Assembly: GCA_016211245.1 (NCBI GenBank)
Contig: JACQSQ010000013.1
Span: 796 to 64,795, forward strand
DNA length: 64,000 nucleotides
Direction of reading: 5' to 3'
From: Candidatus Woesearchaeota archaeon
Lineage (GTDB): Archaea > Nanobdellota > Nanobdellia > Woesearchaeales > GW2011-AR4
The number at the start of each line of letters is the position of its first letter. The first letter of the stretch is position 1. Below, one piece after another: positions 12,088-51,495 of the stretch. Under the pieces are notes generated by a model that was given only the letters and a program-made list of their open reading frames with translations, had not been told where the DNA came from and did no database searches. Position numbers and translations under genes: made by a program.

Positions 12088-12144
12088 ACACCAAGCTAAA
12101 TTATATATATTTATATACGTTTGCATAATCTCGTTTTAGAACTC

Positions 12145-27078: not shown

Positions 27079-28176
27079 ATGAAAATTGTAAGTATTGTAG
27101 GCACAAGGCCAAATTTTATGAAGATTGCTCCTTTGATTGAGGAAATCAAGAAGCACAAAAATATACGGCATGTTCTGATTCATACAGGGCAGCACTATGA
27201 TCTCAGAATGAGTAAACTTTTTTTTGATGACTTAGGGCTGCCTAAACCTGACGAGCATTTAGTCTGTCAAACTGATGTTGGAGTAGATGAACAAAGGGAA
27301 TTTCTTAGGAATACAATCAGAGCTGCGCTTGAAAGACAAAAACCAGATTTGGTGATAGTTGTGGGAGATGTAAACTCTACAGTTGCCGGAGCGCAAGCAG
27401 CTCATGAGCTGGGCATCAAAGTTGCTCACGTAGAAGGAGGATTAAGAAGCTTTGACATGACAATGCCTGAAGAGGTAAATAGGATAGAGACAGACAAAAT
27501 AAGCGATTTTCTGTTTACCACAGAGGAAAGCGGAAACAGGAATTTAAAAAGCGAGGGAATCGACAAAAGCAAGATTTTTTTTGTCGGAAACGTGATGATA
27601 GACTCCTTGCTGAAACACAAGGAAAAAGCGAAAAAATCAGAAATACTTGGCAAATTGAATCTAACAAAAAATAATTATGCATTATTAACGCTGCACAGGC
27701 CAAGCAATGTCGACAGCAAAGGATCTTTGGGATATGTCATTGGCATATTAAGCGAAATACAGAAGAAGATAAAAATTGCTTTTCCGGTGCATCCTAGAAC
27801 AGTGAAAAATCTAAAGAATTTTGGGTTATATGGAAAAGTAAAAAATCAAAAAAACATAATATTGACAGAGCCGCTGGGCTACCTTGATTTCATCAACCTA
27901 ATGATTAATTCAAAGTTTGTAATTACAGACTCCGGCGGCATACAGGAGGAAACTACGGTTCTTGGGATTCCTTGCATTACGATGAGAAACAATACAGAAA
28001 GGCCGGTCACAGCAAGCCAAGGCACTAATATATTAGTAAGCACGGATAAAGCCAATATTATAGAAGCGGCTGACAAGCTAGTCAAAGGAGCCTCTTTTAA
28101 GCCTAAAATGCCCCAATTCTGGGATGGCAAAGCAGCCAAAAGGATTGTTGAAGTTATTCTCAAGAATTTTAGTTAA
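27079..28176 (+). CDS. wecB: UDP-N-acetylglucosamine 2-epimerase (non-hydrolysing), WecB family
   Basis: MKIVSIVGTRPNFMKIAPLIEE...HTGQHYD N-terminal signature, full-length Epimerase_2 architecture. Confidence 0.85.
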   Translation: MKIVSIVGTRPNFMKIAPLIEEIKKHKNIRHVLIHTGQHYDLRMSKLFFDDLGLPKPDEHLVCQTDVGVDEQREFLRNTIRAALERQKPDLVIVVGDVNSTVAGAQAAHELGIKVAHVEGGLRSFDMTMPEEVNRIETDKISDFLFTTEESGNRNLKSEGIDKSKIFFVGNVMIDSLLKHKEKAKKSEILGKLNLTKNNYALLTLHRPSNVDSKGSLGYVIGILSEIQKKIKIAFPVHPRTVKNLKNFGLYGKVKNQKNIILTEPLGYLDFINLMINSKFVITDSGGIQEETTVLGIPCITMRNNTERPVTASQGTNILVSTDKANIIEAADKLVKGASFKPKMPQFWDGKAAKRIVEVILKNFS

Positions 28177-28991: not shown

Positions 28992-29052
28992 TAACCAGTA
29001 AATTTATTATAATATATCAAATTATTGCTAATAATTTTTGACAAAAAGGGAA

Positions 29053-29070
29053 TATTTAAATATAAAAAGT
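29053..29070 (+). promoter_or_regulatory. archaeal-type TATA box/BRE candidate (ATATTTAAATATAAAAAG) about 21 nt upstream of ATG 29086
   Basis: A/T-rich TATA-like octamer at the spacing expected for a leaderless archaeal transcript. Confidence 0.35.
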
Positions 29071-29085
29071 AAAAAAGTATGCAAA

Positions 29086-30057
29086 ATGAGCAATTTTGAA
29101 ACTACTAAGAAAGATTTGGATATACTGTTTGAACTAAGCCTGAATGCAAGAGCCACTATCACACAGATTGCCAAAAAAGTAAAATTGTCAAAACAAGTGG
29201 TAAGTTACAGGCTTAGTTTGCTGGAGAAGAATAAAGTTATCTTGGGATACTATGCGATAACCAATATCTATATGCTTGGAAAAACACATTATCGTGTATT
29301 TGTCAAATACCAAAATATGAGTTCTGAAACTGAAGAGGAGTTTATGAATTATTTAATCAAAAATCCTAAAATCGTGTGGATTGCTTATTTTGACGGTGAT
29401 TGGGATGCGGCATTTTTAGTGTGGGCCGATAATGTCAGAGAATTTGAAGGAATATTTGATGAGATCAATGAAAAATTTGGTATTTATTTTCAACAAAAAT
29501 ATTTTTCCATTGCTACTAAGATAGAATATCTAAAGTTTAAATTTCTTAACAATAACATAAATACTTCTTCCATAATTTTTGGAAATTGTTATTCTAATCA
29601 CAAACTGGATAAACTTGACAGTAATCTAGTCAATGAATTAAATTTAAACGGGAGAGCCACTCTTGTCAGTTTGGCCAATAAATACAATTCTTCAGCCAAA
29701 GTTATCAAAGAAAGAATAGATAAGCTTCAGAGAAACAGAATTATTGTCGGATACAACATTAAACTAAATCATAATCTTTTGGGGTATACGCACAGAAAAG
29801 TACTATTAAAATTGAGTAACACGTCAAAAGAAAAAATTGACCAATTGTCAACTTACCTAAAAAATCACAAAAACTTTATTTACTTGGTAAAGCCAATAGG
29901 AGATTATGATTATGAGTTTGAATTAATGACAAAATCTAATGAAGAATTTCACGAGATAATCAAAGACATAAGGTCTAAATTTGCAGAAGAAATTAAGAGC
30001 TACAACACAGTTATCCATTATAAAGAACCGAAGTCTGGACAATCTTACAATTTTTGA
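29086..30057 (+). CDS. tandem (duplicated) Lrp/AsnC-family transcriptional regulator
   Basis: Two successive units each with HTH_AsnC-type N-terminus (LDILFELSLNARATITQIAKKVKLSKQVV; LDSNLVNELNLNGRATLVSLANKYNSS) followed by RAM-like domain; ORF track start 29038 is TTG, ATG 29086 more likely. Confidence 0.55.
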   Translation: MSNFETTKKDLDILFELSLNARATITQIAKKVKLSKQVVSYRLSLLEKNKVILGYYAITNIYMLGKTHYRVFVKYQNMSSETEEEFMNYLIKNPKIVWIAYFDGDWDAAFLVWADNVREFEGIFDEINEKFGIYFQQKYFSIATKIEYLKFKFLNNNINTSSIIFGNCYSNHKLDKLDSNLVNELNLNGRATLVSLANKYNSSAKVIKERIDKLQRNRIIVGYNIKLNHNLLGYTHRKVLLKLSNTSKEKIDQLSTYLKNHKNFIYLVKPIGDYDYEFELMTKSNEEFHEIIKDIRSKFAEEIKSYNTVIHYKEPKSGQSYNF

Positions 30058-30062
30058 GTTTT

Positions 30063-31124
30063 TTATTCCTTTCTCTCAACAGCCTTCATCAGGAAATTTA
30101 CCTTAATCCAAGGCGGATACTCGGGCATATCATTTTTGCCCAGTCCAAACTCATAGAAAGTGCTTTTGCCCTCACTTGATGCTTTCCTGAATCCCCGGTT
30201 TTCATACAAAGGCTTTATTCTCCAGTTGCTTTCTGTCTCAACAAGCTTGCCAACAACTTTATTGACAGAATTCTCTTTTGCGTAATGCAAAATCGCGACA
30301 ACCAAGGCAGAGCCAATGCCCCTCCCCATAGTTCTGCATGAAACAGTCAAGTCCCTTATGAACCATCCATAATCCTTTTGCTCAATTATGGTTTCTGCGA
30401 TCAGCCCATATTCGCCAAATTTGTCATTTAATTCAACAACCATCACAATGTCATGATTTTTTTCGAATGATTCTTTTAGCTGCTCCAGGCTATACCTATT
30501 TGTCGTTGCATTGAGCTCATTGGTCCTGTTAAGCAATTGAGTGACTCTTGGCCAATCTTCTTCCTCAACAGGCCTTACAGTCATCACCATATCGCATTGC
30601 ATCAGGAATTCCTTGAAATCGCCTTTGTGGCTTTTCTCTGCTTCTTCGCGATTTCTCTGCTCTTTCAACAACCGAACTCTTTTTTTGTCCTCTTCTGTGG
30701 CATTCAATGGCATCACACTTTCAAGCCCCAGGACATCCAATGGATCCAACGCGTCAAAAATATTTATTTCGGGAATCTGGGATTTCACCTCAGCCCTTTG
30801 GAAAGGATCATCATCCACAAAAAGCATTTCATCATAAGAAACATTAAATAAGCCTGCAAGCTTTTTGATCGCATCTGACTTCAAGCCCCATCCGATCTCG
30901 GGCTTTTCAAAATATTTTTCTATTTCAAATTTTTTAAGGATATTCTCAACATCCTCATAATAGTTCTTGCTGCAGATTGTGTTTTTTATGCCCCTTTTGC
31001 CCAGTTCTTTAAGAGCTTCTTTTGTGCCGGGCTTTATCTTGACATTTTCCTTGTCTTTATAGAAAACTGTGCCATCCCAGAGAGTGTTGTCGCCGTCCCA
31101 AATCACCAGCCTGATCCTTTTCAT
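30063..31124 (-). CDS. FkbH-like HAD-IIIC phosphatase domain fused to GNAT acetyltransferase
   Basis: RLVIWDGDNTLWDGT (HAD-IIIC DxDxT), central linker, C-terminal GNAT fold (TVSCRTMGRGIGSALVVAILHYAKE). Confidence 0.6.
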   Translation of the reverse strand: MKRIRLVIWDGDNTLWDGTVFYKDKENVKIKPGTKEALKELGKRGIKNTICSKNYYEDVENILKKFEIEKYFEKPEIGWGLKSDAIKKLAGLFNVSYDEMLFVDDDPFQRAEVKSQIPEINIFDALDPLDVLGLESVMPLNATEEDKKRVRLLKEQRNREEAEKSHKGDFKEFLMQCDMVMTVRPVEEEDWPRVTQLLNRTNELNATTNRYSLEQLKESFEKNHDIVMVVELNDKFGEYGLIAETIIEQKDYGWFIRDLTVSCRTMGRGIGSALVVAILHYAKENSVNKVVGKLVETESNWRIKPLYENRGFRKASSEGKSTFYEFGLGKNDMPEYPPWIKVNFLMKAVERKE

Positions 31125-31151: not shown

Positions 31152-34100
31152 TTAAACCTTTGGTTCACTCATCTTGCGCAGTATCTGATAAACGACCAAC
31201 AAAACAACAACCACAATAATCGCAGTCCAGATTATCGCAGCAAGGTTATTTTTCTTTTTCCCCGTATCCTCCATTTTATTTTCTTGTTCTGCTGGCTGTT
31301 CAGTTATGGCATCTGCTTGAATCTGGGTTTCTTCTATTGGAGCTATTGGCTCTGGTACAGGCTCAGGAGCTTTTTCTTTTGCGCCTATTGCAAATACGCT
31401 AAAACCAGGAGTTGAAGACTGGTAAAACGCATTGTTGGCATCGCTTGAAACTTTTGCCGTAGCCAATTCATTCCATTTGTCTTGGGCATATCTAAATAAT
31501 ATGACATCATCTTCATTAACCGAGTTGCTCAAAAGCCAAGCTTTTGGGACTTTAAAGCTGATGGTTATCGTTAATGCGTCGGAATCAGCAATATTTGCTT
31601 TCGTGATTTTCAAATACTGGTAAATACTCGATGCAGCATTCATGGCCAAAGGGTTTGACTCTAGGGCTTCAACAGAAAGATCAACGTTTGTCAGTGTGTT
31701 CTGGACATCGGCTTTTATCTCTGTTATTGCTATATTGTCGTTTTTTACAGCCAAAATCGCAGTTGTTCCGGCTTTAATTATATCCCACCTGCTTGATGCG
31801 GATTTGGTCACATCAACCTTAACATCTCCTCCTCCACCGCCTCCTCCCCCCCCTCCGCCTCCGCCAGAGCTGCTGCTTGAGCTGCTGCTACTGCTGCTAG
31901 ACGATGTTCCGGGAACTCCGCCGGCATAAGTTGAGAAGAGGCATGGCATTTTCCATATGCAGTAATCCGAGCCTGTTTCATTCAAACTCACGCCAGCTTG
32001 GGTGTCTCTTCTTACGCAATTTGCAAGGTTGTCATCGCAATGGTATAGCCTATCGCATGAGCCAGTTCCTTTATCTATTTGTATCATGCAGGACTTCGGA
32101 TGGAATTTGTCAACCAGTTTATTCGAAACTTCTTTGCTTAGGCCTGTATATCCGACAGTAGTGCCTGATGTGGTTGAGGTGGTGCCATTTTTGACGCCGC
32201 CAGCTGTATTCACGTTTCTGATTTCTTCGTTATGCGCAAAGCTTCTTGTTAGCCTGACATCAAGGAAGAATAAGGTTGTATTAGAAGAATTATCTCTAAG
32301 CCGTAAATTTACATTTCTAGCGGTTGTGTAGTTTATTAGTATTCCGGCGTTTGCTCCGCACTGCCTATGCAATTGTGTTTCATAAGTTCCATTGTTGTCC
32401 AAATCAAGATCCAAAATCCAGCCTGATGGCAGGCTCATATCAAATATAAAGCTGCACTTCTTGCATTTTGCCGCAGAGATTGCTGTGGTGAAATTTGAGC
32501 ATGCACTTTGCGCGCAATTACCTGCATGGTCACATATCTTTAATTTATAGTAATAAGTCTTGTTTCCGCTTAGAGTGTAATTCAATGAATTTGTGCCTGT
32601 GTCATTATACAATTCAACCTCATGCCAATTCTTGTATTTTTGGGTATTATTGTTAAAAATGCCAACATCATATAAAGTTTTGTTTAAAGTTACACAATTA
32701 GTTGAGTTATAATAGAAATCCACGCTGCCATTTGTAGGCTCATCTGTGTCGAAGCCTAATAGCGCAGCATCTGGGTATTTTTCAACATTCAAATAAACAA
32801 TTTTTGGAGCAAATGTATCTACAAATCCAGAAGCTTCAACTCCAAGACTGTTTTCCACGCAATATTGATTGCCTTTGCAGTCATAATCGTTGCAATCAGT
32901 TAGGGTGTCAAAATCCTCATCTACACCATTTCCGAAGCAGTCCTCAAATGGAATATACCCTTTATTTATCATAAAGAAGCATTCAGGATCATTTTGAGGA
33001 GACAAGCCATCACCATCACAATCAAGACTTTGATCACCGGTGCCCCAGCAGCATTCTGGTGTAAAGTCTATTGTGCCTGGTGTAAAGAATGAAGGCCCTA
33101 CAGTATCTAAAGGCGAGCTTTCATTTGTTGATTCGTTTGCTGTGGCTGAATAAAGCCTCAAATTAGCTGATAAATTCAGCAAGCCGCTGATTTTTGTGAT
33201 GTCATCCTTGTTAACACTAACCATGCCGCCTTGGATTTCGTTGCACATTTTTTGTTTCCAAGCGCTGAGTTGTATGTCTGTTGCTTTCCACTCGCTGCTA
33301 ATGCACCTATGCGCTTTTTTGAGTTCAGTTACAGAGCCATTGACGTAACTAGCCTCGTATCTGAAATATAGATCCCAGCCAACGCTGCTGCTATTTGAGT
33401 TCAAAGCGCATCCTCCTGTTGTTTTTCCATCAGAGTCCATATACCAATAGAATTTAGCAGTGTTATTTCCTGAGCCAACTCCTTGCCATGTGGTAACGCC
33501 ATTGCACATAGCGGCATCTTTAATGTTGATTACTCCAGTTCCCAAACCAAAATTGTCTTTGCTGTCTTTCATTCCGAAGTAGCATACATCACTGAATGCA
33601 GAAATACCAGTTTCCGGGCAGGGATCATTGCCTAAGGGTATTGGAGGGCTTTCCATATCCATTCCAGTGAACATCTGCATAGTGGCTGCCGAATCACACC
33701 AGCCGCTGCGCCAAGTGCCATTCAAGCTTGTGCATTGGGATTCTGTAGTTGAGTTGAACACTTTCGGCTCACACGAAGAGTAATTTGATGAGACTGTACC
33801 TGTGCTCGCTATACTCCAATTTTTCCAGAAGCATAGAGGATCAGCGTTGCATTGTGTTTGGTCAGATGCAAGTGTATAATTCCACCAGCACCTATTCCCT
33901 TTTTGGTCGCACCAACCATTATTCGCGTCAAAGCCTGTCCAGGAGCAATTTATATTTGTATTACAAGAAGATTGAAGCTTATAGTTGAAACAGTCAGTGT
34001 TATAGCTTATATCGCACATCGGATTTGGGTCTGGCAGCCACTTGCAGTTTGTCTGGTTGCTGCAAACAGTTTGTGTTTCGTACTGGAAACAGCTGAACAC

Positions 34101-37100
34101 TTGCGTTCCGTTGCCTCCAAATCCCGTAGGGTCGCACCAGCCGTTATTGCTTTTGCACATGCCATTTGTGCTGCAATCGCTGCCTAAATTAAAACATCCA
34201 GATTCACAATAGCCTCCTGTTGGAGACCAAGGGTCAAAGCGCCATGAGCAGCTTAAATTACCCCCAATTGTGGAATTTGCATTATTACAAGCAGTTTGAT
34301 TTGACATTAAAGTTTGGTTGAAATGGCATATCTCATGCCTATGGCCGCACCATCCTGTAGTGCCGCCAATGCTTCCCATATGGGCGTCAACAAACCAATA
34401 ACACCTGCTATTGCCATTACAATCGCTTTGGCTTAAAGGTGCGCATTCGTCCCATACTGAAGAATTTAAGTTGCACGTATTTGAGCCAGATGCATGCCAC
34501 TCGCAAGAAGCATTTTCCCTGGCGCAACTAGTTTGATCGCCATCATTTTGCCAGCAAACTGCAGATTTTTGGTCGCACCAGCTGCCATATGTGTCATTGA
34601 ACCATCTGCAATCATTGTCAACACAGCTTGCATTATTTGAGTACTGCCAGCAATCTTTAATGGAAGTTCCTCCGCAAAATGGATCTGTAAAGCAGCCACC
34701 GTCAGCACAATCTACTTTTGCGTCTCCATCATTATCACTACCATCAAAGCAAATTTCAGTAGCGCCTGTATCCTCTGCTGTGGATGATTTTTTGCATAGC
34801 CCAAGAGTAGCATCCCATGTGCATGAGCCATTAACTCCTCTTCCCCTTTCTACACAGGATTTCTGGTCATTACAATTTCCACATCTGTCAAGGCATGTTG
34901 TTGTGCCGGCAGAAGCGCAAGAGCCCTTTGTAGAGTCCAAAGGATCTATTTTCCAATCGCATTTGGCGTCCAAGCATTTTGTTTTTGCATTTACTTCATT
35001 ATAAACGTTGCAAGCATCACAATTATTTGAGTCACATTTGCTTACACTTCCATCTTTAAACTCCTTGCTTGCCTCGCAATAGCCAAAACCATTAGGCGCT
35101 ATGCCATCAGTGCGCCACACGCAAAACCCTAATGCTGAAGACTCGCAGGCTGTTCTTGCAGCTTCTACGTTTGTGTAATTTGTGCCATCCGTCTTGAATT
35201 CGCATCTAAAGCATCCTATATCACAGTTGCCTCCTTGAGAGCCTAACTTTGGCGCGCATCTTCCAGATGTTATAGAGGCATTTGTCAGATTGCCAGTGCC
35301 GCAATAGCTTTCTGTAACCCATAAACCACCCACACCCTTTTCACACATGTCCCTATTATCCACTAAATCGATGTCGCCTTCTTCGCCTTGGGCAAAGAAT
35401 GAATCACCCTTAAACTCGCAATGCTTTGTTGCGTTATTCCACTTGCAAGGCATATACCATGGGTTATTAGCTATTTCCTTGCATTTGCTTTCTGAGTCAT
35501 AAGCATTGTAGTCATCACAATAAGTGGCTCCTTCAGGAGGCTTTTTTAGGTTGTCCCAGCATTTTGTTGAAAATTTATTTTCAGAGCAACTACCGGCCTG
35601 CCATTCACAGCAATGAGGCAAAAATGTAGCACTATTGCATAGATTAGAATTATTAAGTAATGTACAATTTAATCCATTTGCATATATACCATTTGCTATA
35701 TCAACTGCGACAAGGGTGCTTACATTGCATTGGTTTAATGTGGTATCATACCTGCAGCCAGTTGTATTTGAGCATGAGCTTTGGTTTTGGTCGAAAATCC
35801 AGCAGCCTGGAGCAACAAAAGTGCCTCCAATTGCGCCTCCTTCAGTGCCTGCTGTAGGATCGTTGCATTTGGATCCTAGGGAATCCCACCAGCACCATGC
35901 AGAGTCAAAGCATTTTTTCTCATCTGTTATATTAGTGCAGCTAAAGACAGAAGTAAAGTTTTGATAACATGAGCCACCCCAAGTAAGGTTTTCATATACA
36001 CAACTTAATCCGTACCCATTATTTTCACAAGTGCTTTTATTGCCTTGGTGCCATTCGTCAAAACTCCAGCAGCCAACGCTTTCACACCATCCAGTTGTTG
36101 CGTAAGTAGATATTTGCCAGGTGCAGTTTTTGTTAGCATATCCTAGGGATCCTTTGCAGCTAGTTTCATCTACATTTTGCCAGCATGACCTTGTCTCGCA
36201 CCAAGGATTGTTCCAAGCGCATGTAAGGCCTGCAATTCCGGTACTCTGGCAGCCGGATTGGTTATTGTTGAATGTATAACAGTTAAATTCCTGGCAATAA
36301 TTGTACTTTGAATCCCATTTGCAATTTAATGTGTCGGTTGTGTTCGTGCATGAGGCTTGTGATTGATGCTTTGTGTCCCAGCATCCAATATCAGAACAAT
36401 AACCATAATTAGTCCAGTAACAATCAACATCTGAATTGCATGCAGCTTGTGATGTATAGTCCCAGCAGCCTCTTTGCCAGCAAGCGCCCCACTTGCAGCC
36501 TGTTGTGTTTCTGCACTTTGCCTCATTTGTTGAGATATTGACTCCACTACATTGCCAGTTTCCAAAGCAATGAGATGCACTGCCGTTAGTTGTCGTGTTC
36601 ACAGGAACTAAAGCCGGACCATATATGCAATCTAGTCCATAAGCATCAGTATCATCTTCGCAAGCCGTTTCGTTTGTGCCGTCATAATTCCAGCATTGTA
36701 TTTCTGTGCACCATGTATAGGTTTGAACTTTAGAGCCTTGCCATAAGCATGTGCCATTCAAATGACCAGAAGCATTTGCATTTTTACACCCGCTTTCTGT
36801 GTAAAAACTCCAGCAGCCAAGCTCTTCGCACCATCCTGTGCCCCAAGCATCATTTCGCCAAGTGCATTGTGAGTTATTTTGGCAGTTTGTCTTGTCAGAA
36901 TATGTCCAGCAGGTTGTTACTCCAAATGCAAAGTTGGCAAATACAAAAAATAAGAGGATAACCGCTACTAGAAAAAATAAGAATATAGATAATTGAAGCC
37001 CTCTTTTTCCTAACATTAATGCACCATTAGTTAATGTTATTTTATCATGAAAGCGCTTATATTTAAACATTCCGAAATTCAGGTTTGAGGCCCTAAAGTT

Positions 37101-37130
37101 AAGAAAACCATTAAACAATTCGAGACCCAT
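31152..37130 (-). CDS. giant (1992 aa) secreted Cys/Trp-repeat surface (glyco)protein with C-terminal TM anchor; S-layer/cell-surface protein candidate
   Basis: Signal peptide likely from Met39 (MLGKRGLQLSIFLFFLVAVILLFFVFANFAFG, start about 37016). About 1000 aa of CxW-type Cys-rich repeats. Dozens of N-X-S/T sequons. Beta-rich central region. Ser14-Gly13 linker (31827-31907). PGF-containing domain (PGF at 31401-31409). PEPVPEPIAP linker. Terminal TM helix (31179-31244) followed by RKMSEPKV. Confidence 0.8.
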   Translation of the reverse strand: MGLELFNGFLNFRASNLNFGMFKYKRFHDKITLTNGALMLGKRGLQLSIFLFFLVAVILLFFVFANFAFGVTTCWTYSDKTNCQNNSQCTWRNDAWGTGWCEELGCWSFYTESGCKNANASGHLNGTCLWQGSKVQTYTWCTEIQCWNYDGTNETACEDDTDAYGLDCIYGPALVPVNTTTNGSASHCFGNWQCSGVNISTNEAKCRNTTGCKWGACWQRGCWDYTSQAACNSDVDCYWTNYGYCSDIGCWDTKHQSQASCTNTTDTLNCKWDSKYNYCQEFNCYTFNNNQSGCQSTGIAGLTCAWNNPWCETRSCWQNVDETSCKGSLGYANKNCTWQISTYATTGWCESVGCWSFDEWHQGNKSTCENNGYGLSCVYENLTWGGSCYQNFTSVFSCTNITDEKKCFDSAWCWWDSLGSKCNDPTAGTEGGAIGGTFVAPGCWIFDQNQSSCSNTTGCRYDTTLNQCNVSTLVAVDIANGIYANGLNCTLLNNSNLCNSATFLPHCCEWQAGSCSENKFSTKCWDNLKKPPEGATYCDDYNAYDSESKCKEIANNPWYMPCKWNNATKHCEFKGDSFFAQGEEGDIDLVDNRDMCEKGVGGLWVTESYCGTGNLTNASITSGRCAPKLGSQGGNCDIGCFRCEFKTDGTNYTNVEAARTACESSALGFCVWRTDGIAPNGFGYCEASKEFKDGSVSKCDSNNCDACNVYNEVNAKTKCLDAKCDWKIDPLDSTKGSCASAGTTTCLDRCGNCNDQKSCVERGRGVNGSCTWDATLGLCKKSSTAEDTGATEICFDGSDNDGDAKVDCADGGCFTDPFCGGTSIKDCWQYSNNASCVDNDCRWFNDTYGSWCDQKSAVCWQNDGDQTSCARENASCEWHASGSNTCNLNSSVWDECAPLSQSDCNGNSRCYWFVDAHMGSIGGTTGWCGHRHEICHFNQTLMSNQTACNNANSTIGGNLSCSWRFDPWSPTGGYCESGCFNLGSDCSTNGMCKSNNGWCDPTGFGGNGTQVFSCFQYETQTVCSNQTNCKWLPDPNPMCDISYNTDCFNYKLQSSCNTNINCSWTGFDANNGWCDQKGNRCWWNYTLASDQTQCNADPLCFWKNWSIASTGTVSSNYSSCEPKVFNSTTESQCTSLNGTWRSGWCDSAATMQMFTGMDMESPPIPLGNDPCPETGISAFSDVCYFGMKDSKDNFGLGTGVINIKDAAMCNGVTTWQGVGSGNNTAKFYWYMDSDGKTTGGCALNSNSSSVGWDLYFRYEASYVNGSVTELKKAHRCISSEWKATDIQLSAWKQKMCNEIQGGMVSVNKDDITKISGLLNLSANLRLYSATANESTNESSPLDTVGPSFFTPGTIDFTPECCWGTGDQSLDCDGDGLSPQNDPECFFMINKGYIPFEDCFGNGVDEDFDTLTDCNDYDCKGNQYCVENSLGVEASGFVDTFAPKIVYLNVEKYPDAALLGFDTDEPTNGSVDFYYNSTNCVTLNKTLYDVGIFNNNTQKYKNWHEVELYNDTGTNSLNYTLSGNKTYYYKLKICDHAGNCAQSACSNFTTAISAAKCKKCSFIFDMSLPSGWILDLDLDNNGTYETQLHRQCGANAGILINYTTARNVNLRLRDNSSNTTLFFLDVRLTRSFAHNEEIRNVNTAGGVKNGTTSTTSGTTVGYTGLSKEVSNKLVDKFHPKSCMIQIDKGTGSCDRLYHCDDNLANCVRRDTQAGVSLNETGSDYCIWKMPCLFSTYAGGVPGTSSSSSSSSSSSSSGGGGGGGGGGGGGDVKVDVTKSASSRWDIIKAGTTAILAVKNDNIAITEIKADVQNTLTNVDLSVEALESNPLAMNAASSIYQYLKITKANIADSDALTITISFKVPKAWLLSNSVNEDDVILFRYAQDKWNELATAKVSSDANNAFYQSSTPGFSVFAIGAKEKAPEPVPEPIAPIEETQIQADAITEQPAEQENKMEDTGKKKNNLAAIIWTAIIVVVVLLVVYQILRKMSEPKV

Positions 37131-40433: not shown

Positions 40434-41336
40434 ATGAAAATACTAGTAACTGGCGGAGCGGGATTCATAGGAAGTTATATCGTAAAACACCTCCTGGATA
40501 ATAATCATAATGTGAAGATACTTGACATAAAAGAGCCGAAAATAAGGCACAAAAACCTTGAATTCGTCAAGAAATCAATTCTGGATGACATAAAAAAAGA
40601 TATCATGGGCTCTGATGCTGTTTTCCATTTTGCCGCATTATTGGGCGTTGACAACTCCGACAAAAAGCCATTGGAAACAATGAAAATCAATCTCGAGGGC
40701 TCTGTGAACGTCTTCAAGTCAGCGATTGATGCAGGCGTTAAAAATATGATATATTCTTCTTCATCTGAGGTTTACGGGGAGCCAAGGGAATTGCCTATAA
40801 AAGAGGATAGCGTGAAAGGTCCAGTCTCAACTTATGGTGTTTCCAAATTGGCTGCTGAGATTTATGCGAAAGCCTATAACCAAGAATTTGGAACTGATAT
40901 CAGAATTGTAAGATTTTTTAATGTCTATGGCCCGGGGCAGGAAAGCAATTGGGTTGTTCCTATATTTTTGAACAAGGCTTTGAGAAATGAGCCGATAACT
41001 GTATTTGGAAATGGCAACCAGACAAGATGCTTTACATATGTCGAGGATGTTGCAGAAGGCGTCTTGACTGTTTTTGAGAAAGGAAAATCTGGAGAGGCTT
41101 ATAATATCGGCAATAATCAGCCAACCACAATACTTGAGCTTGCGCAGATTGCAAAGGAAATGACAAAAAGCAAATCTGAAATTATCAAATTGGGTTTTGG
41201 CAAGGAGACAAGATTGAAAGAAAGAGAAATCGAATACAGGATTCCGGACATTTCCAAGATGAAAGCATTGGGATGGCAGCCAAAGGTAATGATTAAGGAT
41301 GGTGTTAAGAGGATATTGGAGAGTATGAAAAACTAA
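40434..41336 (+). CDS. NAD-dependent epimerase/dehydratase (UDP-glucose 4-epimerase/UXS-like SDR)
   Basis: MKILVTGGAGFIGSYIVKHL, YGVSKLAAE, C-terminal RIPDISKMKALGWQPK. Confidence 0.8.
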   Translation: MKILVTGGAGFIGSYIVKHLLDNNHNVKILDIKEPKIRHKNLEFVKKSILDDIKKDIMGSDAVFHFAALLGVDNSDKKPLETMKINLEGSVNVFKSAIDAGVKNMIYSSSSEVYGEPRELPIKEDSVKGPVSTYGVSKLAAEIYAKAYNQEFGTDIRIVRFFNVYGPGQESNWVVPIFLNKALRNEPITVFGNGNQTRCFTYVEDVAEGVLTVFEKGKSGEAYNIGNNQPTTILELAQIAKEMTKSKSEIIKLGFGKETRLKEREIEYRIPDISKMKALGWQPKVMIKDGVKRILESMKN

Positions 41337-41408
41337 AATCATTGGAAAAATATGGCAGATATGGCTATGATATAATAAAAGACGCTAAAAACAGGATAGG
41401 TGCATAAA

Positions 41409-41702
41409 ATGGCAAAGGTTGTGACTTTAAGGCTAAAGGAAAAAGAGCTTGGTTTTATAGAAGAGTTATCTAGGAAAGAAAATGGCGACAGGTCTCATGC
41501 AGCCAGGAAACTAATAGATTACGGCTGGATTTACTTCATTTTAAAAAACTATAAAGAAGGGAAGATGAGCATAGGCAAGGCTGCAAAAGAGCTAAATTTG
41601 ACAATAACTGAAACAATAGAGCTTTTAGCTGATTTAGGAATAAACTCCCCTATAACTTATGAAGAATACTTGGAAGGTTATAGGAATTTAAAAGATATTT
41701 GA
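41409..41702 (+). CDS. UPF0175-like small protein (antitoxin-like, HTH/RHH)
   Basis: About 98 aa, KAAKELNLTITETIELLADLGI resembles UPF0175 C-terminal helix; SD-like AGGTG upstream. Confidence 0.35.
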   Translation: MAKVVTLRLKEKELGFIEELSRKENGDRSHAARKLIDYGWIYFILKNYKEGKMSIGKAAKELNLTITETIELLADLGINSPITYEEYLEGYRNLKDI

Positions 41703-41716
41703 TAATTATTTTTCAT

Positions 41717-43000
41717 TCAGCTCCTCCCAATCCCGTGATAAGCTATTCCCATTGACTTTATCTTTTCCTTGTCCAAACAATTCCTGCCGTCAATTACAAC
41801 CAAAATCTTATGCTTCTTTAATTTCTCCAAATCCATTGACTTAAACTCTTTGTGGTCAGTAACCAAAACCAAATAATCAGATTTGTTCAATAACTCATCC
41901 AAATCCCTGACATTGCTTTCTTTCTGAACATGGGGGTCAAAGACAAAAACATCTGCTCCTCTTGTTTTCAGGATGTTAATCACTTCATAAGCTGGACTTT
42001 CGCGGACATCATCGACATTTGCTTTGTACGCTATTCCCAAAACACCGACTTTTGCGCCTTTGATCGCTTTTTTTAATTTTTTCAATTCATTTTCCAATAA
42101 TTCGACTGTATAATGGGGCATGTTATTGTTGATTTCACGAGCCAATTTTAAGAACTCATGATTAAATCCAAATTGTCTGCCTTTTTCTATCATATAATAA
42201 GGGTCTTGACTAATGCAGTGTCCCCCCACCCCGCTGCCAGGATAATGCGGCATGAACGCAAACGGTTTTGTTGAGGCGCCTTTAATAACTTCAAGAATAT
42301 CAATCCCTGCCTTGTCAAAGCTTTGCGCCATCTCATTCACAAATGCAATGTTAATATCCCTAAAAGTGTTTTCCATTATTTTCGTGGCTTCTGCTGCTTT
42401 AACACTACTAAGTTCTAAAACATTCGCATTTAGAATTCCTCGATAGAAATCTGCAGCCGCCTGAGTAGCCTCTTTTGTAATCCCTCCGACAACCCTTGGC
42501 AGCATTTCAATAGTCCATTTTTTGTTGCCTGGGTCAATCCTTTCAGGGCAATGCGCCACAAGCAAATCATTTTTTTGAATGTTAAATTTCTCTTTTTGCA
42601 ATATGGGCAAAACAACTTCCTCAATCGTTCCAGGATAAATTGTTGATTCTATTACAAGCAAAGCGCCTTGCCTTATGAATTTTGAAACGGTCGATACAGA
42701 ATTCATTACTGCAGTCAAATCAGGGGAATTATTCCTGTCAACAGGAGTTGGAACGCAGACAATAACAACATCAGAAACAGGAATGCATTCTTTCGGGTCT
42801 GTTGTTGCCCTGATTTTATTCTTCAATGATCTTAATTTGCCTGCAACATACTCATCTTCAATCGGGCTTTCATTTTTATTTACGCTGTCAATCTTGCTTT
42901 TGTCAACATCAAAACCATACACTTTATGGCCTTTTTCAGCGCATAAACAGGCGAGAGGCAGGCCGACATAGCCTAATCCAACAATGGTAATTGTTTTCAT
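41717..43000 (-). CDS. UDP-N-acetyl-D-hexosamine/UDP-glucose 6-dehydrogenase family
   Basis: MKTITIVGLGYVGLPLACLCAEKGH, catalytic Cys in GVGGHCISQDPYY, C-terminal UDP-binding domain. Confidence 0.85.
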   Translation of the reverse strand: MKTITIVGLGYVGLPLACLCAEKGHKVYGFDVDKSKIDSVNKNESPIEDEYVAGKLRSLKNKIRATTDPKECIPVSDVVIVCVPTPVDRNNSPDLTAVMNSVSTVSKFIRQGALLVIESTIYPGTIEEVVLPILQKEKFNIQKNDLLVAHCPERIDPGNKKWTIEMLPRVVGGITKEATQAAADFYRGILNANVLELSSVKAAEATKIMENTFRDINIAFVNEMAQSFDKAGIDILEVIKGASTKPFAFMPHYPGSGVGGHCISQDPYYMIEKGRQFGFNHEFLKLAREINNNMPHYTVELLENELKKLKKAIKGAKVGVLGIAYKANVDDVRESPAYEVINILKTRGADVFVFDPHVQKESNVRDLDELLNKSDYLVLVTDHKEFKSMDLEKLKKHKILVVIDGRNCLDKEKIKSMGIAYHGIGRS

Positions 43001-43309: not shown

Positions 43310-43554
43310 GCAATATACAAATATTTTTTAAAGGAGTAAAACGGGGTTTTGGGGATTTTTCCCATCTCATAAACAACATCATTAATTTTTTCCTTCTTTT
43401 GATAGTTTACATCGTTGGAATTGGCCCGGTTTCAGCTATAAGCAAATTATTCGGAAAGCATTTTCTTGACATTAAAAGACAAAACAAAGCATCCAACTGG
43501 CATGAGCATAAGGTCACAAAACAACCGATAGAAAAATATTACAGGACTTTTTGA
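43306..43554 (+). CDS. SxtJ-like small membrane protein (carbamoyltransferase-associated)
   Basis: About 82 aa, single TM, position directly upstream and coupled (ATGA) to NodU/CmcH carbamoyltransferase as in many sugar-carbamoylation loci. Confidence 0.35.
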   Translation: MSNIQIFFKGVKRGFGDFSHLINNIINFFLLLIVYIVGIGPVSAISKLFGKHFLDIKRQNKASNWHEHKVTKQPIEKYYRTF

Positions 43555-43559
43555 TTAAA

Positions 43560-45296
43560 ATGACAGCAATTCTCGGAATTTCATGTTTTTATCATGATGC
43601 GGCAGCGTGCCTTATCAAAGACGGCATTGTTGTAGCGGCAGCAGAAGAGGAAAGGTTCACAAGAAAGAAGCACGACATTAGTTTTCCCATCAACGCTATA
43701 AGTTACTGCCTTAAAGAGGGGGAAATAACCGGACAGCAGCTAAATTATGTAGCTTTCTACGAGAAGCCGCTGCTGAAATTCGAGAGGCTATTGAGCATGC
43801 ATTTGGAAATGTTCCCGAGGTCGTTTTGGTCTTTCTACAAGGCATTGCCTGCATGGATAAATGAGAAATTGAGGGTGCCGGGAATTATACGAAAAAAACT
43901 GCATTACAAGGGAGATATCATGTTCATTGAACATCATCTTGCGCATGCAGCATCATCATTTTTGGTAAGCCCGTTTGAAGAAGCCGCTATTCTAACAGTT
44001 GACGGCGTTGGGGAATGGGCGACTGCATCATACGGCTATGGCAAAGGAAATGATATAACCCTCTTGAAAGAATTGAGGTTTCCACATTCCATTGGGCTTT
44101 TATACAGCACAGTTACCGCGCACCTCGGATTTTCTGTAAATAACTCGGAGTACAAGGTCATGGGTCTTTCACCCTATGGAAAGCCGGTGTATTATGACGA
44201 CTTCAAGAGGGTTGTTGATATAAAGGAAGATGGGAGCATAGAGTTTGACATGTCCTATTTTGATTTCCATTACAAGCTTACGATGCCCAGCAAAAAGTTT
44301 GAAGAAGAGTTTGGAAAAATAAGAAAGCCTCATGAAGAGGTCACGCAAAAACACAAGGATATTGCAGCCTCGCTGCAGAAAATAACAGAAGAAATGATAT
44401 TTAAGATGCTGAATCACCTGCACAAGGAAACAAAGATGGATAACCTTTGCATGGCAGGGGGAGTTGCATTGAACTCGGTTGCTAACGGAAAAATAACAAG
44501 AAACACGCCATTCAAGAAAGTCTGGATACAGCCTGCTGCAAGCGACGCTGGCACTTCCTTGGGGGCGGCTGCTTATGCTTATAACACAATTCTGGGCAAT
44601 AAAAGAAAATATACAATGAAATCCGCTTATCTTGGGCCTTCTTACTCAGCTGAATACCTGCAGAAATTTCTGGATGATGATGGGGTTATATATAAAAAAT
44701 TCAAAGATGACACAGCTTTGGTAAAATTAGCTGCCAAACTGCTTTTCGAAAGCAATGTCATCGGATGGTATCAGGGCAGGATGGAGTGGGGGCCAAGGGC
44801 ATTAGGGGCAAGAAGCATTTTGTCAAATGCAACAAACCCCAAGATGAAGGACATCCTGAACCTAAAGGTCAAGCACAGGGAGCATTTCAGACCTTTTGCG
44901 CCGGTTATAAGCAAAGAGGACGTTCATGATTATTTTGAGATTGACAAGGATGAAGAGCCATTCATGCTTTTTGTCTATCCTTTCAAGGAAAAAGTGAGGC
45001 ATCTTGTGCCAAGCGTTGTCCATGTTGACGGAAGCGGCAGGCTGCAAACCACTTCAAAAGAAGAAAACCCTCTGTATTATGGAGTTATAAAAGAGTTTGA
45101 AAAGCTCAGCAAGATACCAATACTTGTCAATACCTCATTCAACATAAGGGGCGAGCCGATCGTATGCACTCCTGAGGATGCCTACAGGTGCATGATGGGC
45201 ACAGGGATTGATTATCTTGTCATGGATAAATTCCTGATAAAAAGAGCCGATAATCCGAAAGATATGTGGGACAGTGAGAAAATTGCCACGGACTAG
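43560..45296 (+). CDS. carbamoyltransferase, NodU/CmcH family (sugar O-carbamoyltransferase)
   Basis: N-terminal ILGISCFYHDAAACLIKDGIVVAAAEEERFTRKKHD (Carbam_trans_N), HLAHAASSF, C-terminal Carbam_trans_C. Confidence 0.85.
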   Translation: MTAILGISCFYHDAAACLIKDGIVVAAAEEERFTRKKHDISFPINAISYCLKEGEITGQQLNYVAFYEKPLLKFERLLSMHLEMFPRSFWSFYKALPAWINEKLRVPGIIRKKLHYKGDIMFIEHHLAHAASSFLVSPFEEAAILTVDGVGEWATASYGYGKGNDITLLKELRFPHSIGLLYSTVTAHLGFSVNNSEYKVMGLSPYGKPVYYDDFKRVVDIKEDGSIEFDMSYFDFHYKLTMPSKKFEEEFGKIRKPHEEVTQKHKDIAASLQKITEEMIFKMLNHLHKETKMDNLCMAGGVALNSVANGKITRNTPFKKVWIQPAASDAGTSLGAAAYAYNTILGNKRKYTMKSAYLGPSYSAEYLQKFLDDDGVIYKKFKDDTALVKLAAKLLFESNVIGWYQGRMEWGPRALGARSILSNATNPKMKDILNLKVKHREHFRPFAPVISKEDVHDYFEIDKDEEPFMLFVYPFKEKVRHLVPSVVHVDGSGRLQTTSKEENPLYYGVIKEFEKLSKIPILVNTSFNIRGEPIVCTPEDAYRCMMGTGIDYLVMDKFLIKRADNPKDMWDSEKIATD

Positions 45297-46413
45297 CAAG
45301 CTAAAGAATATTGCCGTGAACCTGATTTTGCTTCTTTTCTCATTGGCTGCAGCTTTTCTTGCGGCAGAGCTTATAGTTTCCATATTCTTTCCGCAGGATT
45401 TGCAGAAATATAACCTAGACCAGGATATTGTCCACAGCCCAAGGCCCAATACCGTAACAAGGCTCAGCGGGCCGGAATTTACAGTTGTCAGGGCCACAAA
45501 CTCAAAAGGGCTTGTGGACTATGAATATAATTATGAATTTGACGGCTTTACCATTGTGGCGCTGGGAGATTCCTTTACAGAAGCATCCCAAGTCAGTCTG
45601 GAGGAGGGATTCCCAAAAATTTTGGAGAAGAAACTTAAGGCGGGATATGAACAAATAAGGGTTGTCAATTGCGGAATTGGCAATACGGGAACAGACCAGC
45701 AGATGATATTCCTGCAAAAGGAGTGCATCAAGTATCATCCAAATATTGTCATGCTGAATTTTTATATAGGCAATGACTTTGCCAATAATTATGCATCTCT
45801 TGTGACCGGCTATGAAAAAGGAAAGCTCACTGACAAAAGGCCGGTGAAGTTCTCAAGATTCCAGAGATTTTTTCATTTCCTTAATACAAGGTCCCATTTT
45901 GTAAAGCTTGCCGAGAACATATTCCTCAACAGCGATTTTACAAGGAAATTCCTGTTCAAAATAGGCCTGTATAAAACTACAGGCGAGCCTTACGACAATC
46001 CAATAAGCCTGCAGCATGTATTCTTCATGAAAAATGAGATAAGTGATATTGGATACAACAAGACGCTGCTCATCATGGACAAGCTGATTAATTACACAAA
46101 ATCTCAGAATGCGCAGCTGATAGTTACAATCATCCCCACAAGAGAGCAGGTTGATAATAGCAAATTCAAAGAGCATTTTGAGATTTATAAAAAAATAAAC
46201 ATCTCTGTCAATATGACTTACCCAAATGCAATCTTGGCTGATTACCTAAAGAGGAATAAGATTATAGCTATAGACTTGCTGCCTGATTTCAAAGCTGAGA
46301 ACATAAACAACACATTTTACTTCAACGAAGATGAGCATTTTAATAAAATAGGGCACCAGATGGCTGCTGATGTCATCTTCGAAAGATTAATAAAGTCCAA
46401 TTTAATTTCTTAA
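45274..46413 (+). CDS. membrane-anchored SGNH/GDSL hydrolase-type protein (paralog 3 of 4)
   Basis: N-terminal TM; IVALGDSFTEAS, MLNFYIGNDF, DEHFNKIGHQMAA. Confidence 0.7.
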   Translation: MRKLPRTSKLKNIAVNLILLLFSLAAAFLAAELIVSIFFPQDLQKYNLDQDIVHSPRPNTVTRLSGPEFTVVRATNSKGLVDYEYNYEFDGFTIVALGDSFTEASQVSLEEGFPKILEKKLKAGYEQIRVVNCGIGNTGTDQQMIFLQKECIKYHPNIVMLNFYIGNDFANNYASLVTGYEKGKLTDKRPVKFSRFQRFFHFLNTRSHFVKLAENIFLNSDFTRKFLFKIGLYKTTGEPYDNPISLQHVFFMKNEISDIGYNKTLLIMDKLINYTKSQNAQLIVTIIPTREQVDNSKFKEHFEIYKKINISVNMTYPNAILADYLKRNKIIAIDLLPDFKAENINNTFYFNEDEHFNKIGHQMAADVIFERLIKSNLIS

Positions 46414-51348: not shown

Positions 51349-51495
51349 TATTATAGAATTTAATTGACTGGTTTAAAAATGTTGTTAAGAACAGAATGCT
51401 GCCAGTTTATCGTTAGATTTGTTTGTGACAATTTTTAATCAAAAGCTTTAAAAACATACTTCCGATTTTGCATACCAATGATTCAGCCAGATACC

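What the first reader, a model, noticed from the sequence alone, without database searches (positions are those of the whole stretch)
33800..36920. Apparently novel CxW-type cysteine/tryptophan repeat module
Over about 1000 aa the protein repeats units of roughly 25-35 aa. Each unit has an invariant Cys-x-Trp/Tyr dipeptide context: GCWSF, QCWNY, GCWDY, GCWDT, NCYTF, SCWQN, GCWIF, KCWDN, DCWQY and VCWQN. Each unit has 2-4 further Cys and frequent N-glycosylation sequons. I do not recognise this as EGF, a cadherin-like domain or a known archaeal S-layer domain. It may be a new disulfide-stabilised extracellular repeat. Its variable inter-Cys loops could serve as glycan display or ligand-binding sites.
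Basis: seen in the sequence. Interest (0 to 1): 0.6.

Follow-up and report, generated by a model that had tools for sequence, protein, structure and literature searches.

The report
Four-cysteine tryptophan repeat of archaeal surface glycoprotein
The region encodes about twenty tandem copies of a small, probably two-disulfide, tryptophan-rich module that forms the outer half of a giant sugar-coated surface protein of a tiny DPANN archaeon; no domain database describes this module, and its nearest, only borderline, relative is a domain of the trypanosome coat protein.

Summary
The finding lies on the minus strand inside one 1,992-aa ORF (31152..37130) and corresponds to aa 71-1111. The repeat unit has a 29-residue core, C-W-x-[YF]-x6-C-x6-C-x-W-x8-[WY]-C, usually followed by a 4-residue linker. 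There are 11 copies at aa 74-468 and 9 at aa 827-1145, with variant Cys-rich units between them.

A profile built only from distant homologues finds 13 units in the real sequence and at most 1 in 200 shuffles. All 44 Cys of block 1 are conserved in 36 orthologues. C1 and C3 are always lost together (15 both lost, 34 both kept, 0 discordant), which implies C1-C3 and C2-C4 disulfides. AlphaFold gives each unit a short helix plus a beta-hairpin. Sequons are twice the shuffled expectation.

Pfam, NCBIfam, PDB sequence profiles and Foldseek give no confident match. The protein is a membrane-anchored surface glycoprotein of a Woesearchaeota archaeon: signal peptide, repeats, beta-sandwich core, PGF-pre-PGF domain, TM anchor. 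It sits in a glycosylation island.

Related units occur in only 232 of 1.84 billion cluster representatives, including diplonemid giant VWA proteins. Similarity to trypanosome VSG C-terminal domains and PSI domains is borderline. Verdict: an unannotated disulfide-rich extracellular repeat family, and a new variant of a known kind.

The parts
31152..37130 (-). Whole ORF of 1,992 aa encoding a giant surface glycoprotein. The probable true start is Met39 (nt 37016).
   Evidence: ORF listed. There are 83 homologues of 1,200-3,000 aa in DPANN archaea, the best at 76% identity. In homologues the first unit begins at residue ~28-37, against 74 here, which fits a start at M39.
36921..36998 (-). N-terminal hydrophobic segment (aa 45-70, LQLSIFLFFLVAVILLFFVFANFAFG), read as a signal peptide.
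   Evidence: It is one of only two hydrophobic segments in a Kyte-Doolittle scan. The first repeat follows it directly.
35727..36911 (-). Repeat block 1: 11 four-Cys units (aa 74-468, 44 Cys). Units start at aa 74, 106, 146, 194, 222, 250, 284, 316, 354, 398 and 443.
   Evidence: Self- and family HMMs. All 44 Cys columns are conserved in 36 orthologues. AlphaFold model with pLDDT 80 gives helix plus hairpin per unit.
34653..35726 (-). Middle Cys-rich region (aa 469-826) with degenerate or variant units. It includes three 6-Cys units carrying an extra CxxC (aa 636-779) and an acidic double-disulfide-like motif (aa 791-819).
   Evidence: Only weak or partial hits of the unit HMM. NCBIfam acid_disulf_rpt scores 31.4 bits, below its 41-bit cut-off. 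Cys pattern and conservation shown.
33696..34652 (-). Repeat block 2: 9 units (aa 827-1145). Units start at aa 827, 859, 896, 935, 979, 1014, 1047, 1081 and 1124. The last unit lacks C1 and C3.
   Evidence: HMM hits, unit table, and co-loss analysis of the last unit across homologues.
31896..33695 (-). Conserved ~600-aa, mostly beta core (aa 1146-1745) made of several beta-sandwich-like domains.
   Evidence: Its length is conserved at 556-614 aa in nearly all homologues. AlphaFold gives pLDDT 89 and pTM 0.84. Foldseek finds only generic multi-beta-sandwich arrays, with E about 1e-4 and TM below 0.25.
31827..31907 (-). Poly-Ser / poly-Gly flexible linker (aa 1742-1768).
   Evidence: Read directly in the translation.
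31386..31787 (-). PGF-pre-PGF domain (aa 1782-1915).
   Evidence: NCBIfam TIGR04213, E=3.1e-25, 89 bits against a 28-bit cut-off.
31179..31385 (-). Pro/Glu-rich stalk (aa 1916-1961) and C-terminal transmembrane anchor (aa 1962-1984), followed by a short basic tail.
   Evidence: Sequence and hydropathy scan.

Best explanation
The finding is the membrane-distal half of a type-I-anchored giant surface glycoprotein of a Woesearchaeota (DPANN) archaeon. That half is an array of about 20 small autonomous modules. Each module has a 29-residue core with four invariant cysteines and folds as a short helix followed by a beta-hairpin. Two disulfides, C1-C3 and C2-C4, staple the module, and it packs around conserved Trp/Tyr residues. 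Four-residue linkers (consensus C-E-E-x-G-C-W) join the modules head to tail. The resulting chain is long, stiff and hard to unfold. It carries roughly one N-glycan per module at a preferred position just before C2. Because the protein is anchored by its C-terminus, this glycosylated rod is the outermost layer of the cell, acting as a spacer and glycan-displaying canopy and as the first surface to meet the environment or a host cell. Shown here: the repeat, its conservation, the Cys pairing pattern, the predicted secondary structure, the sequon enrichment, the topology signals, and the absence of any database family. Inferred: actual disulfide formation, actual glycosylation, the rod-like shape, and the coat or contact function.
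For: The repeat is real and far beyond chance. There are 1,000 units in 84 family members with four invariant Cys, and 44 of 44 Cys columns are conserved across 36 orthologues of 35-59% identity. C1 and C3 are lost only together: in the orthologous last unit 34 sequences keep both, 15 lack both (with V, G, A, P or L replacing C1 in different lineages), and none is discordant. Two further independent co-loss cases exist. The AlphaFold model has pLDDT 80, with many units above 90, and repeats a helix-helix-hairpin pattern. The modal linker is 4 aa. Sequons are 61 against 29.5 +/- 4.6 in shuffles; 69% of units carry at least one, and 39% carry one at model positions 7-8. Topology: only two hydrophobic segments, an N-terminal signal and a C-terminal TM helix, plus a PGF-pre-PGF domain. 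The gene sits in a window full of glycan-synthesis genes: a flippase, five PMT_2-type glycosyltransferases, GT1/GT4/GT9 enzymes, UDP-sugar dehydrogenases, epimerases, sugar C-methyltransferases and a carbamoyltransferase. Putative DPANN surface and S-layer-like proteins have been proposed on sequence features such as glycosylation sites, Ig-like folds and, in some, a C-terminal TM helix; none is experimentally determined (bioRxiv 10.1101/2023.10.27.564410).
Against: There is no experimental evidence for expression, disulfides or glycans. Many Woesearchaeota live in anoxic groundwater, where extracellular disulfide formation is not obvious, and I did not look for an oxidase. pTM is only 0.52, so the relative orientation of units, and hence rod stiffness, is not predicted. 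The glycosylation-island context is not conserved in the one homologue checked (P0015). The abundance of exposed aromatics could instead point to a binding function.
Confidence: 0.7

Rival explanations
1. The modules are primarily ligand-binding adhesin or lectin units. On this reading the exposed Trp/Tyr residues stack on sugars of a host cell's S-layer glycans, as in small disulfide-rich carbohydrate-binding modules, and the array gives multivalent attachment of the episymbiont to its host.
For: Each 29-residue core has three to four conserved aromatics, more than a mini-core needs. The array is the most distal part of the protein. Cultivated and studied DPANN archaea are ectosymbionts whose surface proteins are suspected to mediate attachment. 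Related units occur in diplonemid giant proteins next to VWA adhesion domains.
Against: No similarity to any carbohydrate-binding module was found in Pfam or the PDB. The loops are themselves heavily sequon-decorated, which would tend to mask binding faces. The loops are highly variable, whereas the aromatics sit next to the Cys, as expected for core residues. No binding data exist. This rival is compatible with the main explanation rather than exclusive of it.
Confidence: 0.25
2. The unit is a diverged member of an already known small domain family, either the PSI (plexin-semaphorin-integrin) domain or the 4-Cys structured region of the trypanosome VSG C-terminal domain, and so is not a new family.
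For: The diplonemid version of the unit aligns to the archaeal unit with hhalign probability 92%, E=7e-7. It aligns to a PSI alignment with probability 74%, E=2.8e-5. Its PDB profile search returns 8 hits at E<=10, of which 5 are VSG C-terminal domains (best E=0.02, all four Cys aligned) and 2 are semaphorin-2 PSI domains. A combined archaeal plus diplonemid profile scores three VSG structured regions at E=0.003-0.006 when the database size is set to that of the PDB. The VSG structured regions have four conserved Cys, a conserved aromatic and helix/strand elements (PMC12226131).
Confidence: 0.3
3. The four cysteines of each unit bind a metal (a Zn or Fe Cys4 site) rather than forming disulfides.
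For: Four invariant Cys in about 29 residues is also the signature of small metal-binding knuckles. Many Woesearchaeota live under anoxic conditions.
Against: Units that lack exactly C1 and C3 but keep C2 and C4 persist in many lineages, which fits two independent disulfides and not a tetrahedral site. The protein is extracellular. There are no His or Asp co-ligand patterns and no match to zinc-finger families.
Confidence: 0.04
4. The apparent repeat is a by-product of a Cys/Trp/Asn-rich composition and has no defined unit.
For: The protein has 7% Cys, 3.4% Trp and 9% Asn, and the loops between Cys are highly variable.
Against: Shuffles of the same composition never give more than one unit hit, against 13 in the real sequence. 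Cys spacing and register are conserved over 1,000 units.
Confidence: 0.01

Closest known systems
Structured 4-Cys region of the Trypanosoma brucei VSG C-terminal domain (PDB 1XU6, 2JWG/2JWH, 5M4T, 8Q0P)
   Same: Both are extracellular modules of about 30 residues with four conserved Cys. Both have an aromatic two residues after the third Cys, helix plus beta-strand elements, and often an N-glycan site. The spacing C-x9-C-x5-7-C-x-[WF]-x6-8-C aligns over all four Cys (description in PMC12226131).
   Different: VSG has one or two copies, which are membrane-proximal and GPI-linked. Here there are about 20 tandem copies, which are membrane-distal. The archaeal unit adds W after C1 and W before C4. 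Statistical support from the archaeal profile alone is not significant (E=0.18-1.8). Fold and disulfide connectivity were not compared.
PSI domain (Pfam PF01437; plexins, semaphorins, integrins, MET)
   Same: Both are small extracellular Cys-rich modules with the motif C-x2-[HYF]-...-C-...-C-x-W-...-C. From memory, the PSI disulfides C1-C4 and C3-C6 would map onto the C1-C3 and C2-C4 pairs inferred here. The diplonemid relative of the unit reaches hhalign probability 74%.
   Different: PSI has 6-8 Cys, including a CxxC and a W-C pair, is about 50 residues long and occurs singly. The Pfam PSI model does not hit. The archaeal unit against PSI gives hhalign probability 0.4%. The CxxC-containing middle units give at most 1.6%.
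EGF-like and other tandem disulfide-rich extracellular repeats (EGF, TNFR, furin-like)
   Same: The architectural principle is the same: many small disulfide-stapled beads joined by short linkers to make a stiff, glycosylated extracellular rod.
   Different: The unit has 4 Cys rather than 6, a helix plus hairpin rather than an all-beta fold, and is Trp-rich. There is no Pfam match to any of these families at E<=10.
Proposed archaeal or DPANN S-layer and surface proteins (PGF-pre-PGF / C-terminal TM anchored glycoproteins)
   Same: Shared features are a signal peptide, beta-sandwich domains, many N-glycosylation sequons, a C-terminal anchor and the PGF-pre-PGF domain.
   Different: The DPANN S-layer candidates described in the preprint read are about 1,000 aa and built from Ig-like folds. 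A 1,000-aa Cys/Trp-rich array on top of such a core was not found described in the papers searched.

Membership tests
Any Pfam-A / NCBIfam repeat family (EGF, PSI, TSP1, GCC2_GCC3, etc.) | An HMM match at or near the curated threshold over the repeat region. | tested here: not met
   Pfam on the whole protein returned only DUF6548 at E=0.48, in the C-terminal tail. Six segments plus a tandem consensus at E<=10 gave nothing over the repeats. NCBIfam returned only PGF_pre_PGF and a sub-threshold acid_disulf_rpt, both outside the repeat units.
PSI domain (PF01437) | Profile similarity to PSI sequences across the Cys framework. | tested here: inconclusive
   hhalign of archaeal units (A2) against 8 Pfam-verified PSI sequences (A4) gave probability 0.4%. 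Diplonemid units (A6) against A4 gave probability 74%, E=2.8e-5 over 20 columns.
PSI domain (PF01437) | A 6-8 Cys pattern that includes C-x2-C and C-x-W-C. | tested here: not met
   The canonical unit has exactly four Cys and no CxxC. The three middle units that do have CxxC show hhalign probability of at most 1.6% to PSI.
VSG C-terminal domain structured region | Four conserved Cys with a conserved aromatic, detectable by sequence profile. | tested here: inconclusive
   A2 profile against the PDB: 5m4t at E=1.8. A6 profile: five VSG CTDs at E=0.02-7. Combined profile on isolated fragments: E=0.003-0.006; archaeal profile alone: E=0.18.
VSG C-terminal domain structured region | The same three-dimensional fold and disulfide connectivity. 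| not testable with these tools
PGF-pre-PGF domain protein (TIGR04213) | An HMM match above the curated cut-off. | tested here: met
   89 bits against a 28-bit cut-off, E=3.1e-25, aa 1782-1915. This applies to the protein's C-terminus, not to the repeat.
Archaeal S-layer / major envelope glycoprotein | Secretion signal, membrane anchor and dense N-glycosylation sequons. | tested here: met
   An N-terminal hydrophobic signal and one C-terminal TM helix. 61 sequons, twice the shuffled expectation.
Archaeal S-layer / major envelope glycoprotein | Very high expression and formation of a 2-D lattice. | not testable with these tools
   No expression or imaging data exist for this organism. S-layer proteins of DPANN archaea have not been determined experimentally.
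Disulfide-stabilised module (generic) | Cys residues conserved, and lost, in pairs. | tested here: met
   C1 and C3 both present in 34 sequences, both absent in 15, discordant in 0 in the orthologous last unit. Two further independent C1+C3 co-losses were seen.

The most novel reading that the evidence does not exclude
The unit would be the archaeal branch of an ancient, cross-domain two-disulfide helix-hairpin module. That module would also have given rise to the dozens of repeats in diplonemid giant VWA proteins, to the structured region of the trypanosome VSG C-terminal domain, and perhaps to the core of the PSI domain. Its patchy distribution (DPANN archaea, a few bacteria, Euglenozoa, possibly giant viruses) would reflect horizontal transfer between episymbiotic archaea and protists. 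In DPANN the array would serve as the host-contact organelle.
Probability: 0.2. Interest if true: 0.8.

Novelty: new variant of a known kind. Interest (0 to 1): 0.55.

Why it matters
DPANN archaea are a large part of archaeal diversity, and the cultivated ones live attached to other cells, yet none of their envelope proteins has been characterised experimentally. This family appears to provide the outermost layer of many Woesearchaeota and Nanoarchaeota cells. Its building block is absent from the domain databases searched, so these giant proteins are currently annotated only by a small C-terminal domain. A defined unit, with a consensus, boundaries and a predicted disulfide map, allows three things: annotation of the family, expression of fragments for structure and binding tests, and a search for the host ligand. 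The link to diplonemid repeats and, more weakly, to the trypanosome VSG C-terminal domain would, if confirmed, give that eukaryotic coat-protein domain its first relatives outside kinetoplastids.

Tried and rejected
(1) Pfam and NCBIfam on the whole protein, on six segments and on a tandem consensus gave nothing over the repeats.

(2) PDB sequence search with the 11-unit profile A1 gave 0 hits at E<=10. The single-unit profile A2 gave one hit, at E=1.8.

(3) Foldseek of the repeat model against the PDB (best E=2.7) and against BFVD (best E=0.17) found no significant match.

(5) The idea that the unit is a PSI domain was not supported for the archaeal unit (hhalign 0.4%) or for the CxxC middle units (at most 1.6%).

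With the two-unit alignment it found only one extra protein, because of the word index. The exhaustive representative search replaced it.

(7) The search for related loci with alignment A5 failed because no stretch was conserved enough. The single-protein scan found only five loci in three MAGs: two groundwater Woesearchaeota, one Nanoarchaeota, and two short contigs of a bin labelled 'uncultured Methanosarcinales'.

(8) Conservation of the glycosylation-island context was checked in one homologue and is not conserved.

(9) A local L-INS-i alignment of all full-length homologues timed out and was replaced by FFT-NS-2.

(10) Literature searches for PGF-pre-PGF, DPANN cysteine-rich proteins and the Woesearchaeota S-layer found no description of this repeat.

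(11) The original VSG C-terminal-domain structure paper is not in the library, so VSG disulfide connectivity was not verified.


Full report
**Location and observation**

The coordinates 33800-36920 lie inside a single minus-strand ORF, 31152..37130, of 1,992 aa. They correspond to residues 71-1111. The protein contains 7.0% Cys, 3.4% Trp and 9.1% Asn. Cys and Trp are concentrated in residues 70-1150.

**The repeat unit**

Regex seeds were followed by iterative HMM searches, first on the protein itself and then on 84 family members. They converge on a 29-position core, CWNYDGNQTACENSGLGCTWKNDTWGGWC. It has four invariant Cys, with W at position 2 (76%), Y/F at position 4, W at position 20 (87%) and W/Y/F at position 28. 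About 1,000 units were collected from the 84 proteins.

- The C1-to-C4 length is 22-43 residues, with a mode of 27-28.
- The commonest linker to the next C1 is 4 residues, so the period is about 32.
- In the window protein the units form two blocks: 11 units at aa 74-468 (44 Cys) and 9 units at aa 827-1145.
- The 358 residues between the blocks hold degenerate units, three 6-Cys variants with an additional CxxC (aa 636-779), and an acidic double-disulfide-like motif.

**Control for chance**

I built an HMM only from homologues other than the query and its five closest relatives. It finds 13 units of at least 10 bits in the real sequence. In 200 shuffles of the same residues the maximum is one unit. 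The full-sequence score is +80.7, against a shuffle maximum of -57.7. The repeat is therefore not compositional.

**Conservation and disulfide topology**

The first block aligns with 36 orthologues at 35-59% identity. All 44 Cys columns are conserved.

Natural variation gives the pairing. The last unit of block 2 lacks C1 and C3 in the window protein. Among parsed homologues, 34 keep all four Cys and 15 lack exactly C1 and C3, with different replacement residues in different lineages. None lacks only one of the two.

Two further independent C1+C3 co-losses occur in other units and lineages. This implies C1-C3 and C2-C4 disulfides. It also argues against a four-ligand metal site.

**Predicted structure**

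AlphaFold2 on residues 70-480, with the 37-sequence alignment, gives mean pLDDT 80, with long stretches above 90. Each unit shows the same pattern: a short helical turn at C1-W-x-Y, a helix ending at C2, then a beta-hairpin carrying C3-x-W and [WY]-C4. pTM is 0.52, as expected if the units are beads whose mutual orientation is not fixed by the prediction.

**Comparison with known families**

- Pfam-A gives nothing over the repeats, even at E<=10 on six segments and a tandem consensus.
- NCBIfam recognises only the C-terminal PGF-pre-PGF domain, plus a sub-threshold acidic repeat.
- The 11-unit profile finds no PDB sequence at E<=10.
- Foldseek against the PDB has a best E of 2.7. Against viral models the best E is 0.17.

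**The whole protein**

There are only two hydrophobic segments: an N-terminal signal sequence and a C-terminal TM helix. Reading from the membrane outward, the order is:

1. TM helix
2. Pro/Glu-rich stalk
3. PGF-pre-PGF domain (E=3e-25)
4. poly-Gly/poly-Ser linker
5. a 600-aa conserved beta-rich core (pLDDT 89, pTM 0.84; only generic multi-beta-sandwich matches)
6. the 1,070-aa Cys-rich region, which ends at the N-terminus

The repeat array is therefore the most distal part of the molecule.

The family has 83 members in the large protein collection. All are 1,200-3,000 aa. Those that carry a name come from Woesearchaeota, Nanoarchaeota, Aenigmatarchaeota and Nanohalarchaeota, and they are annotated only as 'PGF-pre-PGF domain-containing' or 'hypothetical'. 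The closest genomic relatives are in groundwater Woesearchaeota MAGs.

**Glycosylation**

The ectodomain has 61 N-x-S/T sequons, against 29.5 +/- 4.6 in shuffles. Across the family, 69% of units carry at least one sequon. There is a hot spot at core positions 7-8 (39% of units), immediately before C2.

In this genome the gene lies in the middle of a window filled with glycan-biosynthesis genes: a flippase, PMT_2-type and GT1/4/9 glycosyltransferases, UDP-sugar dehydrogenases and epimerases, sugar C-methyltransferases, acetyl- and carbamoyl-transferases. In one homologue this context is different.

**Distribution beyond the family**

An exhaustive HMM search with a two-unit profile covered 1.84 billion cluster representatives. 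It finds only 232 proteins at E<=1e-3 and 92 at E<=1e-10. The hits include other architectures:

- DUF2157 membrane proteins with 4-5 C-terminal units;
- a 5,641-aa Nanoarchaeota protein and a bacterial Cys-rich cluster;
- giant diplonemid proteins from Rhynchopus, Namystynia and Diplonema, 4,000-6,500 aa, which combine VWA domains with 47-67 tandem 4-Cys units of the form C-x2-[YH]-x5-C-x2-D-x2-C-x-W-x5-9-C-x4.

Profile-profile comparison of archaeal and diplonemid units gives 92% probability, E=7e-7.

**Borderline links to solved domains**

The diplonemid unit profile searched against the PDB returns eight hits at E<=10. [quoted passage not shown] Two are semaphorin-2 PSI domains.

- hhalign of diplonemid units against Pfam-verified PSI sequences gives 74% probability. 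The archaeal unit alone gives 0.4%.
- A combined archaeal plus diplonemid HMM scores three VSG structured regions at E=0.003-0.006, with Z set to the PDB size. The archaeal HMM alone gives E=0.18. Those targets were pre-selected fragments, so the numbers are indicative only.

The VSG structured regions are described as having four conserved cysteines, a conserved aromatic and a conserved fold (PMC12226131). I regard a relationship to the VSG C-terminal domain, and more remotely to PSI, as plausible but unproven.

**Mechanism**

The best-supported reading is that these modules are structural beads. Each is a two-disulfide helix-hairpin packed around Trp. Short conserved linkers join them into a long, unfolding-resistant and protease-resistant stalk. 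The stalk carries about one N-glycan per unit and forms the outer canopy of the cell.

A role in contact with a host cell is an attractive addition, because the studied DPANN are ectosymbionts and the units are aromatic-rich and distal. It is untested.

**Novelty and scoring**

Tandem disulfide-rich extracellular repeats are a familiar kind of thing, so this is not categorically new. This particular module is not found in the domain databases searched, is rare, has a cross-domain distribution, and builds what is probably the outer surface of a major, poorly understood archaeal group. I rate it a new variant of a known kind, with interest 0.55.

Noticed in passing
window 1-64000 (e.g. 5100-6518, 6608-7654, 10624-13761, 13817-15043, 16020-17234, 20142-21362, 27079-28176, 40434-43000, 43551-46413, 48848-52701, 54991-56598): Most of the annotated genes in the 64-kb window belong to a glycan-biosynthesis island. 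It holds a Polysacc_synt flippase, five PMT_2-type GT-C glycosyltransferases, GT1/GT4 and two GT9 enzymes, two UDP-sugar dehydrogenases, a UDP-GlcNAc 2-epimerase and an NAD-epimerase. It also holds two sugar C-methyltransferases, a carbamoyltransferase, GDSL/SGNH acyl-hydrolases and an AAC(3)-like N-acetyltransferase. The giant glycoprotein gene sits in the middle.
   Followed up: partly
P0089, P0095, P0100, P0096 (not in the window): Giant diplonemid (eukaryotic) proteins of 4,000-6,500 aa combine VWA domains with 47-67 tandem 4-Cys units related to the archaeal unit (hhalign 92%). These units are also not covered by Pfam.
   Followed up: partly
P0141, P0149, P0151, P0158, P0175, P0178, P0184 (not in the window): There is a second prokaryotic architecture. 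An N-terminal DUF2157 predicted membrane domain is followed by 4-5 of the same units at the C-terminus, which shows that the unit is a mobile module.
   Followed up: partly
window 34794-35225 (-), aa 636-779: Three conserved 6-Cys variant units, C-x3-4-C-x2-C-...-C-...-C-x-W-...-C, carry an extra CxxC. They look PSI-like by eye but give hhalign probability of at most 1.6% to PSI.
   Followed up: yes
window 34674-34760 (-) aa 791-819, and 32856-33053 (-) aa 1360-1425: Acidic Cys motifs rich in D-x-D-x-D-G (EICFDGSDNDGDAKVDCADGGC; CDGDGLSPQNDPEC...DCNDYDC) resemble Ca-binding 'acidic double-disulfide' or MopE-type motifs. NCBIfam acid_disulf_rpt scores 31.4 bits, below its 41-bit cut-off.
   Followed up: no
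window 33696-33761 (-), aa 1124-1145: The last unit of the array has only C2 and C4. The orthologous unit is 4-Cys in about two thirds of homologues and 2-Cys in the rest, and never 3-Cys. This is a natural experiment that gives the disulfide map.
   Followed up: yes
window 37014-37130 (-): The first 38 codons of the ORF are probably not translated. Homologues place the first unit at residue ~28-37, and Met39 is followed by a canonical signal sequence (MLGKRGLQ + hydrophobic core + AFG).
   Followed up: partly
window 31827-31907 (-): A run of 15 Ser followed by 13 Gly forms a linker. Its reverse strand produces a spurious 95-aa ORF with a poly-Pro run (31642-31929 +) in the ORF list.
   Followed up: no
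BFVD entries W5S4M1, W5S4L6, W5S5S1 (Pithovirus sibericum): Small giant-virus transmembrane proteins superpose on a single unit of the model at 1.5-2.8 Angstrom over 32-38 residues (Foldseek probability 0.8-0.96, E=0.3-1.2, not significant). They may be single-copy relatives of the module.
   Followed up: no
window 29038-30057 (+) and 30063-31124 (-): Directly downstream of the giant gene lies a HAD-phosphatase/GNAT fusion. Next to it is a duplicated Lrp/AsnC-type regulator with two HTH_AsnC domains, a possible local regulator of the surface-protein and glycan genes.
   Followed up: no
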